A stretch of DNA of 64,000 nt, from positions 12,524,001 to 12,588,000 of the forward strand of contig OX597826.1 of NCBI GenBank assembly GCA_951406725.2. Reading direction: 5' to 3'. Position 1 is the first letter of the stretch; every line of letters begins with the position of its first letter. A program made the position numbers and the translations under genes. Positions 1,551 to 45,929 of this stretch are shown piece after piece. The notes under the pieces were generated by a model, which worked only from the letters and a program-made list of their open reading frames with translations, did no database searches and was not told where the DNA came from. Source of the DNA: Octopus vulgaris. Its lineage: Eukaryota.

Positions 1551-1611
1551 ACTTCTAAAAATAGAATCCAAATATAAGATCAAATGAATACACCCTAGTA
1601 CTTTCTTATTA

Positions 1612-2037
1612 GGATATTTTCGGTTTGAACGGCAGTTTTTGCTAAAGGTGTCATATGAAATTGCCACCCATAATTATGACTCTAGAATCGATCTAATGCA
1701 TTTCAATGTTTTAGGGTTAGGGTTAGGGTTAGGGTTAGGGTTAGGGAAGGGTATCTTTTTTTCTTCACAAATGTAAATAAACCCAATCTGTTTCTTAAAC
1801 GAGGGATATACTCATACGGCACAGAATGTTTTTTTACCTCAATAGACGTCAGTGATTGGTTGAAATTGCAGAAATTGAAGAAAAACAACAACAAATATCT
1901 TTCAAACTATAGAATATTCTCAATAAAGCCAAGAGATAAATATGTTTTATAAACACATTCTACCAGTATACGAAGTTGAAAAGTATTTAATTACCTAGAA
2001 ATTATGTTAAAAACTGCCGTTCAAACCGAAAAGATTC
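1612..2037 (+). mobile_element. Non-autonomous TIR element (MITE-like) with internal (TTAGGG)6, copy 1
   Basis: 29-bp TIRs GGATATTTTCGGTTTGAACGGCAGTTTTT / AAAAACTGCCGTTCAAACCGAAAAGATTC; TTAGGG x6 at 1711-1746; flanking TATTA at 1607-1611 and 2038-2042; homologous copies at 3809 and 36184. Confidence 0.9.
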
Positions 2038-2208
2038 TATTATGTATTTTAACAATGCCTGATCGATCTTGGTAATATTCGATGAAGGAATGTGTAAATA
2101 TCCGCCTATGTACCGGAAGGCATTTATCTCCATCTTCTAAAATGTATACCACACTGCTATTCTTCCTTTAAAATATAAGTTAAGCTAATATCTATTAAGA
2201 GAAAATAG

Positions 2209-2424: not shown

Positions 2425-3808
2425 ATCTAATTCAAAAGCATTTTTAGTGCTGGAATTCTTTAATATAATATGCAATGCTTCGATGTGTGTTTGAAAGGAA
2501 AGGTGTAGGCTAGAAGTCGGCTGGGGAGGAAGCAAATATTTTTATGTGCAAGCAACCAATACATCGGCATAAATATAAAGCAATTAGTGATTTCCTCATA
2601 TAAATACAATCTCGCTTTTTGAGAATTATGGTAAGAATTAAAATGCCCATTTATTTATTGGCTGTGCACATATCAATCAATCGATTGGTTGATAGATAAA
2701 CCAGTTAAATATTCAACTCGTGATCTCTGTACGCTCAGCACGTGCAGAGAATTGGAAAAACAAAAAAAGTTTAACTAGCATTTAGGGAAAAGCCTGTATT
2801 TCTATTTATATCCGTATTTATATCCCGACATAATGGATTTTCATTCAATGTAACTGTTACTCAAGGCTAACCTCTCTGACGGACTTTTAAATGTCGATTA
2901 ATTACATACCAAACTAGTATGGTGACTATTGATCTAAAGTTGTTGTTTTTTTATCAGCTTCATTTAACCGAATACGTCTTTTTGAAAGGCTATTAGAAAG
3001 ATTAAAGAAGGCAATATTTTATAGCGGAACCTCATATCATTCAGAGTTGTACTTTCTAAAGAAATCTTTGAATATCCTTAGAGCTTAACTCCAACCTCCA
3101 AATCCAATAATGTAATATCAGCTAATATTTTTTCTTTTTGTGTGCTTGTGTGTGATATGAGGTTCGCGTTAAATGTTTTTAAGAGAAGATGAAGGCTGCA
3201 ATATATTTATTGTGCTTGATCACTCGACCGGCTTCAAATGACACCCAAATATTCTTCAAATTACAAGTTGCTATTTTAATAATGAAGAAAACGTTGAATA
3301 AAATTGTCCTATATACAGTGTTTCAAGAAGAAAAAAAAGAAAATGCTAGATTACCATCATTGGAATCTTATCTATCATAGATCAACTGGATTATGAGCGA
3401 GCTGGGACTAAACAAAAGCAAAAGATAAACTTATCTAGAAACTGGAGGATGAACAGCGAATTAAACACGGCTCAGCCGATCTTCAGTGCCATAATGGCAC
3501 ACGATTAAGAATATGTTAGAAACCTTGGATGATATCTAATCAACAGACATTTGGAATAACATTTTTGAAAGTGTAGTGTTAGCACTAGATATTCGAAGAT
3601 ATGGTAAACCATAGGAATCCAAGAAAATCAATAAATTAGAAAATTGGTTTTAAAATATTTTCGAAGACAGAGTCATAAATAATAGTAATAAAATATGTTG
3701 GTCCCTGCATTTTTTGTTGTATATCTATATAAAGTAACAATAATCCTCTCTTGCGAATTTGAAATATTCTATAGCTTATAATTTCTATTCTCCCTCCCAA
3801 TAAACATA

Positions 3809-4235
3809 GGATCTTTTCGGTTTGAGGTTTTAACATAATTTCTAGGTAACTAAAAAATTTTAAACTTCGTATACTGGTAAAATGTGTTTATAAAACATCT
3901 TTTTCTCTTGACTTTATTGAGAAAATTATATGGTTTGTAAGATATTTGTTGTTTTTTTTTCTTCAATTTCTGAAATTTCAACCAATCAATGACGTCTATT
4001 GAGGTAAAAAGAAAACATTCCGTGCCATATGAATATGCCCCTCGTTTAAGAAACAGATTGGGTTTATTTACATTTGTGAAGAAAAAAAGATACCCTTCCC
4101 CCACCCCTAACCCTAACCCTAACCCTAACCCCAAAACAGATTGAAATGCAATAGATCGATACTAGGGTCATAATTATGGGTGACAATTTCATATGACACT
4201 GCTAGAAAAAACTGCCTTTCAAACCGAAAAGATCC
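3809..4235 (-). mobile_element. TIR element with internal (CCCTAA)4, copy 2 (inverted relative to copy 1)
   Basis: Reverse complement of 1612-2037; termini GGATCTTTTCGGTTTGA...TCAAACCGAAAAGATCC; CCCTAA x4 at 4105-4128; flanked by a 24-bp duplication at 3785-3808 and 4236-4259. Confidence 0.9.
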
Positions 4236-4650
4236 CTATACTCCCTCCCAATAAGCATATCTAACTGTATTCTACTAAATACTAGGAAATACAGTATATT
4301 TATCAATGATTACTAAATAAATGTTTCTGTGATTTTTGAGGATTTTCCTTTTATCACAATTTATATACATATGAAGTTTGCAGTAAAAAAAAAAAAAGGG
4401 TTGGGTTAAATATTCGCTTTAAATAGTTCAAACACTATTACTTAGTGTTATGGTAAACTAAATGAAATTACTTCTACAATAAACGGCGAGCTTTAATCTG
4501 ATGCACTTTGATTTTCGTACATTCCATGCATCACGTGTCAATTAGTTGTAATGTTGTAATTACAACTGTTTGACTTGTGATATATAAATCAGGTAATGAT
4601 TCAAATTTCACATTACTAAAATATTATACTAATAATTATACTAAACATTA

Positions 4651-22679: not shown

Positions 22680-24330
22680 TTGTGAAGGTTGTGTAAGGAA
22701 AGAGGAGAATAGCCTGGCTTGGTATGTCAAGGAGACTAAACAAAAAAAATTTTGAAGCAGTGAAAATGCAGGGAACCTTAAAAGTGAACGAAACCGTAGA
22801 TCCAACACAATTTAAGAAAGACCTGAGAGAGCAGATGAAGAAACTTTGGCAGGACAAGAAGATATACCGTCAGTTCTTGAAGAATAAAGATGAGATTGAT
22901 TGGAATAGAACCTGGCAATTGCTGCAGAAAGGAAACTTAAAAGGGCCCACTGAGGTATTAATGTGCAGCGGACAAGAACAAGATCTGAGAACAAACTACT
23001 CCAAATTTCACATTGTTAAAAGAATTGACTCGTCACAGAGTAGGATAGGCTCTGAGAAGGGAGTAAGTATAAGACATATTTGTCAGTGAGTGCTGCAAGC
23101 TCGCACAAAGCGAATACAAAAGGAGACACGACAATGTGGCTAAATATGCCCACTGTCTGTTGTTCAGTGATCTCATCATCCATACTCTCAACAATACGCT
23201 CTTAAATATGGTTTCTGATTACAAATATCTTGGGTCATACATATCATCATCTGAAAAAGATTTTATAACTAGAAAGGGTATGGCCTGGTCAGCCTGTAAT
23301 GATATGCATAAGATCTGGTCATCAAATCTAAGTAGAGATTTCAAACTTAAAATCTTCAAAGCCACAGTCGAACCAATTCTAATATTTGGCTCAGCAACCT
23401 GGACGTTGTCAAGGAAGCTTGAGAGGCGGTTGGATGGAACTTACACTCGCCTCCTTATGAGAGCTCAAAATATCTCGTGGAAGCGTCATCCAACCAAAGT
23501 ACAAATATATCGGAAATTACCACCTGTATCATCTCTTGAGAAAGGTAGAAGAGTCCAGTTTGCTGGACATTGTTTTAGAGCTGAAAACTAGGTAATCTCT
23601 ACTCTTCTCCTCTGGAAGCCATCTGCTCGCGATACCAGAGGGCGTACACTCTCCTACCCTGATGTAATCTCCAGGGATACAGGCATCCAGCAAAAGGACA
23701 TCCGTAATGCTATGATGGACCGTGAAGTCTGGCGTAACATAGTAAATTCCATTGTCTCAACCACGGTCGAACAATGGTGATGATGATGTTGTTCGGTAAA
23801 GCAAACCTCGAGAGAGCCGAACAATGGTAGAACACAAGCCAGAGGGAGTAATGGAAAATGAACATTACAAAATAATCTGGGATTTTAACATGCAGTGTGA
23901 CCAAGTCATGGAGCGAGACGACCAGATATCGTGCTCATACACAAAGATGAAAAAGAAATAAACATAATAGATGTTGCAATACTAGGCGATTCGAAACGTA
24001 AAGAAATTGAAAAGACTGAGAATTACCAGCCACTGGGAGACGAGATAGGAAAGTTATGGTGCATGAGAAAAGTAATGGTGATACCGGTGGTAATCGGAGA
24101 GTTAGGAGACGTTTCGAAGGGCTTTGAAAAACATATTTAGAATATTGGAGCTGCTGTCAGGCACGAGGTGATCCAGAAGACAGCATTGTTGGGTACATCT
24201 CGCATTCTAAGGAGAGTATTGTCTCAAGTCACAGGAGAAGGCACTACCTGAAACCGTTGGTGATTTGTTTTTGCCTGCTTTCAAGTAAAGAATAACCGGT
24301 AATTGAGAACTATCCGAGAGTCTTTCAGAA
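22680..24330 (+). mobile_element. 5'-truncated, decayed R4/Dong-like non-LTR retrotransposon (zinc knuckle plus restriction-like endonuclease), interrupted by an RTE fragment
   Basis: Frameshifted peptides EENSLAWYVK, WQDKKIY, LKGPTEVLMCSGQEQDLRTNY, HICxxCxKLAQSEYKRRHDNVAK, WDFNMQCDQ..RRPDIVLIHKDEKEINIIDVAI, EKTENYQPL, IPVVIGELG, IQKTALLGTSRILRRVL; followed by a trinucleotide tail. Confidence 0.85.
23169..23786 (+). mobile_element. 5'-truncated RTE-clade LINE nested in the R4-like element
   Basis: YKYLGSYI...KIW...VEPILIFGSATWTL...LDGTYTRLLM...RRVQFAGHCFR...LLWKP; (TGA)n tail; 11-bp TSD tgttgttcagt (23158-23168) / tgttgttcggt (23787-23797). Confidence 0.9.
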
Positions 24331-35583: not shown

Positions 35584-36183
35584 TATAAGAAGGCATTCCA
35601 TAAAATGTTTCTCACAGTATCCATTCTGGTTTGAAATTAATAGCAATGGATGCCATCACCAAAATCTTTTCTCCATAGCATTATAGCATGGCCAATTGTA
35701 ATAACTTAAGAAACTCAACTTCGGGTCTACATGAGTTGCAGATCGGGCTTCAGCTAGCTTTCCAAGGCATTTATTTGGCTGAGAGAAGACGTGTTTAGTA
35801 AATGGATTACTAGAACTTAGCAGTCATAACTCGAATTGTGCAGCAGATCTATGAGAAATGAAGCTCGTGCCGAAGAACATGTCGCACCATACGTTCGGAG
35901 TAAAGCTCATACATCTTAGTAATCTGGATGCCATTATCTTCAACGAGGAAATAAGACGTTTTGTTTTGGTGCCTCCTATTTGATGCTGCTGATTCGAAGC
36001 TGACTTTGTTATCAGATATTTTAATGCTTCTCTCTTTCAATCGTTCCCTCTCTCTGAATCTACCCCTGTCTATCTACCTGTTTGTCTCTGTCTCTCTTTT
36101 TGTATGTACGCTAGAACCTAGAATTGTTCATTGTATATGTAACGTCTCTCTCACCGCATTCTTCTCTATGCGTATATTTCTGC

Positions 36184-36599
36184 GGATCTTTTCGGTTTGA
36201 CCGGCAGTTTTTTAAAATAATTTCCACGTAACTAAACACTTTTAAACTTCGTATACTGGTAGAATGTGTTTATAAAACATCTTTTTCTCTTGGTTTTATT
36301 AAGAAAATTCTATAGTTTGTAAGATATTTGTTGTTGTTTTTCTTTAATTTCTGCAATTTCAACCAATCAATAACGTCTATTGAGGTAAAAACATTCTGTG
36401 CCGTATGAATATGTCCCTCGTTTAAGAAACAGATTGGGTTTATTTACATTTCTGAAGAAAAAAAGATACCCTTCCCCCACCCGTAACCCTAAACCTAAAA
36501 CAGATTGAAATGCAATAGATCGAAACTAGGGTCATAATTATGGGTGACAATTTCATATAACACCGCTAGAAAAAACTGCCGTTCAAACCGAAAAGATCC
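36184..36599 (-). mobile_element. TIR element with degenerate telomeric tract, copy 3
   Basis: 30-bp TIRs with 1 mismatch; CCGTAA-CCCTAA-ACCTAA at 36481-36498; 8-bp TSD atttctgc (36176-36183 / 36600-36607). Confidence 0.92.
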
Positions 36600-37266
36600 A
36601 TTTCTGCTCGCCTCTACATACGTGCGTTCATGTTTGTAGGTACAGTGTGTGTATCTGTCTGCATGTTTGCTTCCAGTGGGACGACATACACCGACTAAAA
36701 CGAACTTAGTGCCCGGTCAGCTGCGCCAGGTACCCAGCTTCCATGCGCACGCGTCAAACTACCCGATTCCGCTTCAGCACTAAGCAAGTTGTCTTCTTAT
36801 GACGAAAGACAAAATCCAATGAAAACAAGTGTAATGACTTCTGAGCAATAATACATTATCGATTACATTTTCATTATCATTCGTAAATTTTCATTTTAAA
36901 TAATTGTTGTATCTCAATTGGTATAACTGTTTTAATTCTATTTTATATTTTAAAATGTAATCAATTTTAGTTTTGAAATATTTCCATTAAATACAATCGT
37001 TTATGCTACATTAGCATACTCAGACTATGTAATTCAAATTTGCAGCAACAAAATACAAATATGAAGAGGTGTGTAGGTGTGTGGGTGTGTGGTTGGGTGG
37101 ACATGTGTACATATATATATATATATATGTATGCGTGTATGGACATATATAAATATATATACACTCATATATATATTACCTATACACACACACATATACA
37201 TATATATATACACACACACGTATCCATATATGTATAAAGAATATATATATTTATGTGTATGTATTC

Positions 37267-43980: not shown

Positions 43981-44629
43981 GAACTCTAAATGAATTGTAC
44001 AGATTAAAAGTAAACATCCGGTATTTTTCCTTATAAAGACGGGTTTTTCATTGGGTTCAGTGTTATTTTCTTCAGCGAAATTTACTCCTATTAACACATA
44101 AACATATGTAGCATCCTAACTTATAAGTACGGATTATCGTAAACAATAATCTTTAAAAAGAAAGACATTGATAAGATCTGAATGATAAGGCATAAAAGTC
44201 TGTAGTCCTACAGTTTACTGTTTGCAAGCAGCAGATATTGAAACGTCATATTGATTTCATTGCTAAAAACAATTTATATTTTGATAGGTTTTACAGGATC
44301 GGTTGAATGTGATTTTATGACGTCCATGCATCGTGTAACAGCATTGAAAATGAAAATATTGTTGCAAGCACCAGGATGTGTAGGCTTTATGTTGTTTCAC
44401 CTTGAACTTACCTCTAATTTACGATAGTCACATCTGACAATATATAATCCTTCTGGCCAGGCACAACTAACAAGTTTATATGCACGAATCACACTCATAT
44501 TAGTAGCAGCATATTATTAGCAATCGATTTTTTAAATATATAATGCCTGTATGAAAATTTTAATTTTAATTTAATATGCAGTTTGTTGAGATGAAACTAA
44601 ATCTTGTAATGTTTTGCGATCTCCGCTAC

Positions 44630-44909
44630 ATTTTTTTCATTTGTTTGACCGTGATCGAGACAATGGAATTTACCATGTTACGCCAGACTTCACGGTCCAT
44701 CATAGCACTATGGAAGTCCTGTTGCTGGATGCCTGTATCCTTGGAGATTACATAAGGGTAGGAGAGTGTACGCCCTCTGGTATCGCGAGCAGATGGCTTC
44801 CAGAATAGAAGAGTAGAAATTACCTCGTTTTCAGCTCTACAACAATGTCCAGCAAACTGGACTCTTCCACCTTTCACAAGAGATGATACAGGTGGTAATT
44901 TCCCATATA
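44630..44909 (-). mobile_element. RTE LINE 3' fragment, same family as 23169-23786
   Basis: RVQFAGHCCRAENEVISTLLFWKPSARDTRGRTLSYP..., highly similar to 23505-23775. Confidence 0.9.
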
Positions 44910-45929
44910 GTGTTAAATAAGATGGAAAACATTACTATTCTAAAGGCTTTACGACTCAATATAATATTCTGGCATTTAGTTCTCTAGTGTTTTCCAATGA
45001 TATTATGAAATATAAAGTTTAATATTAGCAAAATATTTCTGTAAAGTGTATAATATTAAAATCTGAGTACTTTCACTGCTGTATAATCTGATGCTCTCAA
45101 AATGCAAATCGTTAAAATCTATTTTATTTTCATCACTGCTAATTACTATTTCGTAAAGGGTATGAAATAGATTTAAAGTGCTATTTACTTTTTATTCAAT
45201 TAATAACGGGCCATATATTGCTTGCTGTTTCAATTTTCATTTAGCAGGCGGATGTTCTGAAGCCTGTAACTTCTCAGAATAATAATCACTTTATTTTTAA
45301 TGTTTACGATGATGTTACATTCACGCATTTTCGGAGGCCGGCTTTATTGGATTAAATCTACCTAGAACACGGACTAAATAGCACATTACATTTAGTTTCA
45401 TCCGCTTTGCATTTCAGCTGACAAATATGTCTGAATATAAAATATTGTTTTAGAAGTATTAAGGAGTATTTATATATTTCTCTACATATGCATGTGTAAA
45501 TGCTAACAAAGAATTCGGGAGCAATAATGTCTTTGGATATTGCAAAACATATCAAAGAACTATGCAGTGAGCTTATCGGTACTTTATTGTATTTCGATGC
45601 GTGTGACATATGTCTGTGTATTCGACGATTTAAGTCTTTTGAAGGTTTAATATATAGTCTTGTAATGAGTTAGAGAAATTTGTTTAATGTAAAATCTTAA
45701 ATCAGACGTAGAGAAGGCGTGGAAATACTTAGCAATGCTCGACTACACACAACGCAATTCAGTTATAAAAGCAACAGACGCCTGAATAATGATGGGCGTA
45801 AGATCTCCTTTATTTTAAAGAGTTCTGTTGCAGCAAACGGTTGTAACATAAGTTGTTGGTAACATGGTTCCTGGCAGCATATTCACAGGAGATTTTCTTT
45901 TCCATAGTAGACAGCGCTTCCATTTAGAA

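What the first reader, a model, noticed from the sequence alone, without database searches (positions are those of the whole stretch)
1607..2042. TIR element family with variable-length target duplications (5, 24 and 8 bp)
Seen: three 416-427-bp copies (1612-2037, 3809-4235, 36184-36599) share 29-30-bp TIRs starting GGATCTTTTCGGTTTGAACGGCAG. Their flanking direct repeats are TATTA (5 bp), CTATTCTCCCTCCCAATAAACATA/CTATACTCCCTCCCAATAAGCATA (24 bp, 2 mismatches) and ATTTCTGC (8 bp). Established: most DDE transposase superfamilies make a near-fixed TSD length, while variable TSDs typify target-primed retrotransposition or a few unusual IS-related groups. Inference: the element is mobilised by an atypical or unclassified enzyme, or inserts at pre-existing staggered breaks.
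Basis: partly seen in the sequence, partly recalled or inferred. Interest (0 to 1): 0.78.

Follow-up and report, generated by a model that had tools for sequence, protein, structure and literature searches.

The report
Merlin-type MITE with occasional long duplications
This is a very common 420-base jumping element, likely moved by a Merlin transposase, that usually duplicates 8 bases where it lands, but about one copy in twenty carries a 21-275-base duplication whose two ends both look like normal landing sites, likely because the element's two ends were joined at two separate nearby spots.

Summary
The three copies and their 5-, 24- and 8-bp flanking repeats are real, but the family is not variable-TSD. 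Of 376 genomic copies, 296 have an 8-bp TSD, 15 have 7 or 9 bp, 18 have long repeats (21-275 bp, median 70) and 47 none clear. GG termini, 8-bp TSD and a target preference shared with a transposase-bearing Merlin family of the same genome point to a Merlin MITE; its own autonomous partner was not found. The 24-bp repeat is a true duplication: a related organism's empty site holds it once. Both ends of the long repeats carry the 8-bp target signature in exact register (0 of 20,000 null draws; a one-end model also fails), so they record two ordinary target captures, not a variable stagger or host breaks. A hAT-like control shows 0 of 62 long repeats (alone p=0.09). The route, uncoupled ends in one insertion versus hybrid-element reinsertion, is unresolved. 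The 5-bp case is a singleton, possibly an eroded 8-bp TSD. The scan earlier noted long-TSD MITEs only in bacteria (IS1634-type).

The parts
1612..2037 (-). MITE copy 1 (426 bp), reverse orientation relative to the consensus
   Evidence: absent from organism C
1607..1611 (.). left copy of the 5-bp repeat TATTA; 1604-1611 (TCTTATTA) would be the 8-bp target if the other copy lost 3 bp
   Evidence: net +5 against the empty site fits both readings
2038..2042 (.). right copy of the 5-bp repeat
1711..1746 (+). internal (TTAGGG)6 tract; 1-8 CCCTAA units per copy across the family
3809..4235 (+). MITE copy 2 (427 bp), left TIR about 6 bp short
   Evidence: absent from organism C
3785..3808 (.). left copy of the 24-bp duplication
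   Evidence: single copy in the empty site
4236..4259 (.). right copy of the 24-bp duplication (2 mismatches)
36184..36599 (+). MITE copy 3 (416 bp)
36176..36183 (.). left 8-bp TSD ATTTCTGC (the family's normal length)
36600..36607 (.). right 8-bp TSD

Best explanation
The element is a non-coding 417-bp miniature inverted-repeat transposon, likely mobilised in trans by a Merlin (IS1595-type) transposase, that makes an 8-bp duplication in about four of five copies, while about one copy in twenty is flanked by a 21-275-bp duplication whose two ends both carry the normal 8-bp target signature, likely because the two element ends of one insertion attacked two separate nearby target sites. Shown: structure, modal TSD, reality of the long duplications, target signature at both ends, same age as ordinary copies. 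Inferred: Merlin enzyme (about 0.85); two target captures (about 0.85); the route, in which one end is joined at site s, the tethered complex re-captures a second site 13-270 bp away for the other end, and host strand-displacement synthesis copies the stretch between (opposite order would give a copy without TSD and a small deletion). The confidence given is for this route against its rivals.
For: Modal 8 bp: 296 of 376. Merlin is defined by GG termini and 8-9-bp TSDs (PMC8101967 passages); PF12762 transposases are abundant here (150 scored of 476 candidates); one family has GG TIRs, 8-bp TSDs and a 301-aa ORF, and its 21 target sites score 1.87 on this family's target matrix against -1.86 random and -1.28 for 60 hAT-like sites (p=3e-5 versus hAT). 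Long repeats are true duplications (empty site, host repeats single-copy for L064 and L176). The half-site away from the junction scores 1.16 bits at the 36 ends of 18 long repeats, against -1.00 +/- 0.26 inside the same repeats and -0.17 +/- 0.29 for a one-end model, 0 of 20,000 draws each, with a single peak at offset 0. The test was set up on 16 repeats and held in 2 fresh ones (44 of 20,000). Divergence from consensus is equal in 8-bp, long and TSD-less classes, 3.2-3.6%. For this route over reinsertion: no excision footprint at any of 18, exact net length at the one empty site tested, nothing between 275 and about 1,100 bp (p=0.002 against a log-uniform spread), and the bacterial precedent of long variable repeats made upon insertion (PMC2266710 passage). 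TSD-less copies with intact ends, 27 of 376, exceed simulated decay of 1.7-3.6%.
Against: No transposase-coding element with these TIRs was found in 50 of the 150 scored Merlin loci. The transposase-bearing Merlin family had 0 long repeats in 27 copies (about 1.3 expected), though 6 lacked a TSD, one of them a complex rearrangement. Long repeats alone do not differ significantly from the hAT-like control (18 of 376 versus 0 of 62, p=0.09); only long plus unclear do (p=0.0004), and that control is younger (TSD divergence 3.7% versus 5.3%). Aberrant copies are enriched where two copies lie close (16 of 54 versus 48 of 320, p=0.017), which suits a second local reaction better. The junction-side half at the left end scored below true sites (-0.16 versus 0.85, p=0.007), unexplained. 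In TSD-less copies only the left end scores clearly (0.62 versus 0.02; two-end model P=0.09, one-end P=0.04). The window's own 24-mer scores only 0.5 and -1.0, so the claim is for the class, not this copy. The replication set held just 2 long repeats.
Confidence: 0.45

Rival explanations
1. Hybrid-element (sister-chromatid) reinsertion: a normally inserted copy is hit again; the left end of one sister and the right end of the other insert together at a new 8-bp site nearby, giving one product with a long flanking duplication and one with a deletion and no TSD.
For: Predicts target signature at both ends (met) and roughly equal duplications and TSD-less copies (18 versus 27 less a few from decay). 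Aberrant copies cluster (L168 has two long-repeat copies within 1.3 kb). The process is described for ends on sister chromatids or homologues (PMC2775673 passages); flanking duplications and deletions at P elements are recalled from Preston et al. 1996, whose title only was seen.
Against: With a sister as target the leftover ends must be rejoined, yet no footprint is seen in 18 and the one empty site is exact; clean joining over the 8-bp repeat could hide it. With a homologue as target a wider size range is expected (recalled), yet none exceeds 275 bp.
Confidence: 0.33
2. Two independent insertions 20-300 bp apart on different alleles or sisters (local hop), then unequal exchange between the two copies, giving a long-repeat product and a TSD-less product.
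For: Also predicts two true target ends and no new chemistry; composite copies with an extra end 26-311 bp from a full copy exist.
Against: Needs two rare steps at the same spot in about a tenth of copies; the composites share one outer TSD rather than two different ones.
Confidence: 0.08
3. One reading: an atypical enzyme cuts with variable stagger, or the element is captured at pre-existing staggered breaks or by target-primed copying.
For: Lengths are continuous from 21 to 275 bp as for IS1549 and IS1634; exact 7- and 9-bp TSDs exist (3 and 6 of 376). A single protomer's contacts could reach across its cut and mimic a full site.
Against: 79% of copies have 8 bp; both ends are precise TIRs with no tail; the signature peaks at exactly 8-bp spacing at both ends, which breaks would not show; no helical phasing as in IS481EU (PMC10045372 passages); no Rfam match for copy 3.
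Confidence: 0.07
4. Ordinary 8-bp insertion followed by host repair or slippage that duplicated one flank across the element.
For: Explains the 5-bp case (3-bp loss in a TCTCT run) and some TSD-less copies; indel rate is 0.21% per site.
Against: Predicts target signature at one end only: rejected, 0 of 20,000. The hAT-like family in the same genome shows 61 of 62 normal TSDs.
Confidence: 0.04

Closest known systems
Merlin superfamily (IS1016/IS1595-related) and its non-autonomous derivatives; PMC8101967 (passages read), PMC10045372 (passages)
   Same: GG termini, TIR within the 24-462 bp range, 8-bp (sometimes 9-bp) TSD, internal tandem repeats; target preference shared with a Merlin family of this genome.
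   Different: No coding partner with these TIRs found. A 5% class of 21-275-bp duplications was not mentioned in the passages read or in searches.
IS1549 and IS1634 (bacterial IS1634 family); PMC2266710 (passage)
   Same: Long direct repeats of continuous, variable length (8-514 bp there) at precise ends; that 2008 paper says no mechanism had been proposed.
   Different: There it is the rule for those elements, here a minority beside a fixed 8 bp; different transposase family and domain of life.
IS481EU of parabasalids; PMC10045372 (abstract and passages)
   Same: A eukaryotic TIR transposon with more than one TSD length inside one family, including 24 bp.
   Different: TGT...ACA termini and discrete 4, 15, 25 bp spaced by a helical turn; here GG...CC and a continuous, unphased tail.
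Hybrid element insertion and alternative transposition (P, Galileo, Ac/Ds); PMC2775673 (passages), PMC3744419 (search listing only), Preston et al. 1996 (title only; content recalled)
   Same: Precise ends with flanking duplications or deletions whose end points are transposase targets.
   Different: Here sizes stop below 300 bp and no footprints are seen; not shown to be a second reaction.

Membership tests
Merlin superfamily | terminal 5'-GG TIRs of 24-462 bp | tested here: met
   29-bp perfect TIR starting GG in the consensus; definition from PMC8101967
Merlin superfamily | 8- or 9-bp TSD | tested here: met
   296 eight-bp and 10 nine-bp of 376 copies
Merlin superfamily | DDE_Tnp_IS1595 transposase in an element with the same ends | tested here: inconclusive
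   PF12762 is abundant but none of 50 loci examined, of 150 scored, was bounded by these TIRs
Merlin superfamily | target-site preference like a bona fide Merlin (supporting, not defining in print) | tested here: met
   Merlin-C sites 1.87, hAT-like -1.28, random -1.86
Merlin superfamily | match to a curated Repbase or Dfam Merlin consensus | not testable with these tools
   no such library is held; supplements of PMC8101967 were not read
MITE | short, non-coding, TIRs, TSD, high copy number | tested here: met
   417 bp; longest stop-free frame 50 codons; 11,066 exact 29-bp TIR matches, reversed control 0
hAT | CAG/TAG-type termini (recalled) and hAT target preference | tested here: not met
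   termini GG; the hAT-like family here prefers T at 4 and A at 5 in 95% of sites and scores low on this family's matrix
MULE/Mutator | long TIRs and mostly 9-bp TSD (recalled); MULE transposase partner | tested here: inconclusive
   29-bp TIR and 8-bp mode argue against; no MULE transposase search was run
IS1634/IS1549 type | long variable repeats as the normal product | tested here: not met
   18 of 376 copies
IS481EU | TGT/TNT termini, discrete 4/15/25-bp TSDs | tested here: not met
   GG termini; no periodicity at 8, 10, 10.4, 10.5 or 11 bp
Target-primed retroelement (SINE) | RNA-gene head, 3' tail, 5' truncation | tested here: not met
   no Rfam match at E<=1 for 36100-36700; consensus has a TIR at both ends and no tail
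Hybrid element insertion product | reciprocal small deletions at TSD-less copies | tested here: inconclusive
   one TSD-less locus tested against organism C, no bridging contig; L252 restores its host repeat with net 0

The most novel reading that the evidence does not exclude
Merlin transposases uncouple their two ends in roughly a tenth of primary insertions, making continuous-length duplications of 20-300 bp or small deletions. This would be a eukaryotic counterpart of the unexplained IS1549/IS1634 long repeats, would supply their mechanism (two standard target captures by one tethered complex), and would have written several hundred local duplications into this genome from one family.
Probability: 0.4. 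Interest if true: 0.65.

Novelty: new variant of a known kind. Interest (0 to 1): 0.45.

Why it matters
TSD length is used to classify DNA transposons and to call insertions; a 5% long-repeat class and a 7% TSD-less class would be missed or misread. The target-signature test at both ends of a long repeat is simple and can be run on IS1549, IS1634 and IS481EU, for which the papers read say the mechanism is unknown. With at least 5,500 copies, 4.8% means a few hundred transposase-made local duplications. The element itself is ordinary.

Tried and rejected
Multiples of 8: suggested by 24 and 40, rejected (5 of 18; Rayleigh p=0.68). Helical phasing: none. Excision footprints at the outer ends of long repeats: best matches had 2-7 mismatches of 8, none convincing; an apparent one in L124 is read as a later repeat insertion. 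Duplications over 275 bp: seed searches in flanks of up to 1.2 kb found none among the unclear copies. Inverted flank duplications: none in the 24 unclear copies then in hand. Autonomous partner: 50 Merlin loci examined without success; a search for long elements by a wide-gap pattern was not possible; other 8-bp superfamilies' transposases were not searched. Deletion test at TSD-less L239: no contig of organism C bridges it, no evidence either way. Six loci (L185, L258, L260, L291, L300, L515) were dropped from the TSD-less count as nested or composite; L124 was left out's end scores but kept. Copies without a second TIR 150-1,500 bp away were never counted. Four window ORFs had no Pfam match. 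Earlier scan notes by sequence and by place: none.

Full report
Observation. They are about 89% identical; copy 1 is reversed. The window is G000:C13:12524001-12588000 in a 2.8-Gb genome of 227 contigs; size and repeat landscape recall an octopod, which is a recalled impression and was not tested. The 29-bp TIR has 11,066 exact matches, its reversed control none, so there are at least 5,500 copies, and by inference from 3.3% divergence about 14,000.

Sample. Copies came from the 30 best matches to copy 1, exact TIR matches from the start of the first contig, exact right ends followed by AG, CT, GT or TG, exact left ends preceded by TG, AC or CT, and bystanders in fetched loci. Only copies with two recognisable TIRs 150-1,500 bp apart were counted. 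This favours intact ends and fixes two flank bases in many copies, but it does not select on repeat length.

TSD distribution. Of 376 distinct copies, 277 have an 8-bp TSD with at most 1 mismatch, 19 with 2 mismatches, 10 were classed 9 bp, 5 were classed 7 bp, 18 have long direct repeats and 47 have nothing clear. Long lengths (longer copy) are 21, 24, 38, 40, 44, 57, 66, 68, 69, 71, 72, 80, 95, 102, 112, 132, 244 and 275 bp; 4.8%, interval 2.9-7.5%. Mispaired flanks gave 0 long repeats in 300 and 2 in 400. Exact 7- and 9-bp overlaps number 3 and 6, exact 5 bp one, the window's copy 1. The family therefore has one modal TSD and a real long tail.

Are the long repeats duplications? Contigs of organism C, about 6% diverged, run from window 3804 straight to 4256 in two runs from two studies, skipping 451 bp, that is the element plus one 24-mer. 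One run also joins 1608 to 2040, skipping 426+5; this cannot separate a 5-bp TSD from an 8-bp TSD that lost 3 bp, a single deletion in a TCTCT run. For L064 and L176 other members of the host repeat hold the duplicated stretch once (3 and 1 supporting pairs). Copies with 8-bp, long and no TSD are equally diverged from the consensus, medians 3.2, 3.4 and 3.6%; the two arms of long repeats differ by 7.4%, 8-bp pairs by 5.3% under a cut-off that biases it down. The long repeats date from the burst.

Which enzyme? GG termini with 8-9-bp TSDs define Merlin (PMC8101967, passages). The genome has many PF12762 matches. One family, here Merlin-C, is 1.6 kb with GG TIRs, 8-bp TSDs and a 301-aa ORF. From 142 perfect TSDs of our family I built a palindromic target matrix, roughly A at -4 and -1, C or G at 1 and 8, A at 2, T at 7, 9 and 12. 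Merlin-C's 21 sites score 1.87 on it, random flank -1.86, and 60 sites of a hAT-like MITE -1.28. This links the family to Merlin chemistry without a partner, which was not found in 50 of 150 scored loci. Membership is likely, not shown.

How do long repeats arise? Their boundaries are set by the TIRs, not by the matrix. I scored the half of the 16-bp site that lies away from each junction. Over 36 ends the mean is 1.16 bits; windows elsewhere in the same repeats give -1.00 +/- 0.26; a model with one true and one random end gives -0.17 +/- 0.29; neither reached the observed value in 20,000 draws. Offsets -4 to +8 show one peak, at 0, at both ends (0.90 and 1.42). The test was devised on 16 repeats and the two found afterwards agree (44 of 20,000). 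Single sites are noisy: the window's 24-mer scores 0.5 and -1.0 and its normal 8-bp site 0.1 and -1.7. The first and last 8 bp of a long repeat are thus each an ordinary target. Host duplication of one flank and capture at breaks do not predict this. A caveat: one protomer's contacts may reach across its cut, so a full-site signature does not prove both strands were cut at each site.

TSD-less copies. After dropping six nested or composite loci, 27 of 376 have near-perfect ends and no TSD remnant. Simulated decay gives 1.7-3.6% at indel rates of 0.3-1%; the measured rate is 0.21%. Their ends score 0.32, between a one-end model (P=0.04) and a two-end model (P=0.09), with the left end carrying the signal. 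They may be the deletion counterparts, but the one direct test was uninformative, and composites of the form TSD, end fragment, foreign DNA, full element, TSD show another way to lose a TSD.

Controls. The hAT-like MITE had 61 of 62 normal TSDs, none long; Merlin-C had 21 of 27 normal, 6 without, none long. Long alone p=0.09, long plus unclear p=0.0004; Merlin-C TSD-less versus hAT 5 of 26 against 1 of 62, p=0.008, after dropping rearranged L108. Aberrant flanks look Merlin-specific here, but the control is younger and small.

Route. Three routes give two true targets. One insertion with uncoupled ends explains clean joints (no footprint in 18; exact empty site) and the size ceiling (none from 275 to about 1,100 bp, p=0.002 against log-uniform), since the stretch between the nicks must be displaced and copied; I give it 0.45. 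Hybrid-element reinsertion has precedent (PMC2775673, passages; Preston 1996, title only, content recalled), predicts the near 1:1 ratio and suits the clustering of aberrant copies (16 of 54 versus 48 of 320), but needs clean rejoining or unusually short range; 0.33. Local hop plus unequal exchange, 0.08. All three are inferred.

Comparison with print. Long variable repeats are known for IS1549 and IS1634, without a mechanism as of 2008 (PMC2266710, passage), and discrete 4, 15 and 25 bp for IS481EU (PMC10045372, abstract and passages). Searches returned nothing that, in listings or the passages read, reports long repeats for Merlin; Repbase, Dfam, subscription journals and all supplements were not seen and may hold this family. 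PMC7023781, PMC3439972, PMC8090852 and PMC2853133 were read in passages and added little. Earlier scan notes describe long-TSD MITEs in bacteria; unchecked.

Verdict. An ordinary, probably Merlin-driven MITE with an 8-bp TSD, plus a real minority of long duplications that carry a readable mechanistic signature. New variant of a known kind; interest 0.45.

Noticed in passing
L300:1071-1535, L291:661-1535, L258:1096-1914: Composite copies: TSD, a fragment of one element end (19 bp, 143 bp, or about 235 bp with an internal deletion), 26-311 bp of foreign DNA, a full element, the same TSD (L258's match is imperfect). Possibly gap-repair filler or co-mobilised neighbours.
   Followed up: partly
L260:227-2334: A 116-bp unit (32 bp of element end plus 84 bp foreign DNA) amplified 11-fold, about 98% identical, inside one TSD: a minisatellite born from the element's end.
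   Followed up: partly
L071:1501-2341; L056:741-3085; L057:501-2603: Palindromic copies made of two like ends, in this family and in Merlin-C; L071 and L056 have TSDs, L057 has none.
   Followed up: no
L108:2041-2204: Merlin-C end inserted in a copy of this family, then folded back as a 164-bp inverted duplication.
   Followed up: partly
L059:434-3332: Another GGATCT-ended element (about 1.1 kb, 8-bp TSD) with a full Merlin-C nested in it; a possible sister family.
   Followed up: partly
L535:540-1947: Two TSD-less copies in the same orientation whose inner flanks are 7-bp inverted repeats offset by one base; may be chance.
   Followed up: no
L168:707-1917; L559:327-1486: Neighbouring aberrant copies: two long-repeat copies in L168, one long-repeat and one TSD-less copy in L559.
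   Followed up: partly
window 1711-1746 and 4103-4132: Internal telomere-like (TTAGGG)n tract, 1-8 units per copy, so the family spreads thousands of short interstitial telomeric repeats; internal tandem repeats are reported for Merlin.
   Followed up: partly
window 22697-23591 and 44626-44931: Two related decayed reading frames (91% over 286 bp) that look like retroelement remnants by eye; no Pfam match.
   Followed up: partly
L331-L430: A 200-bp hAT-like MITE with asymmetric TIRs and a strong target preference (T at 4 and A at 5 in 95%), 1,689 exact end matches; used as control.
   Followed up: yes
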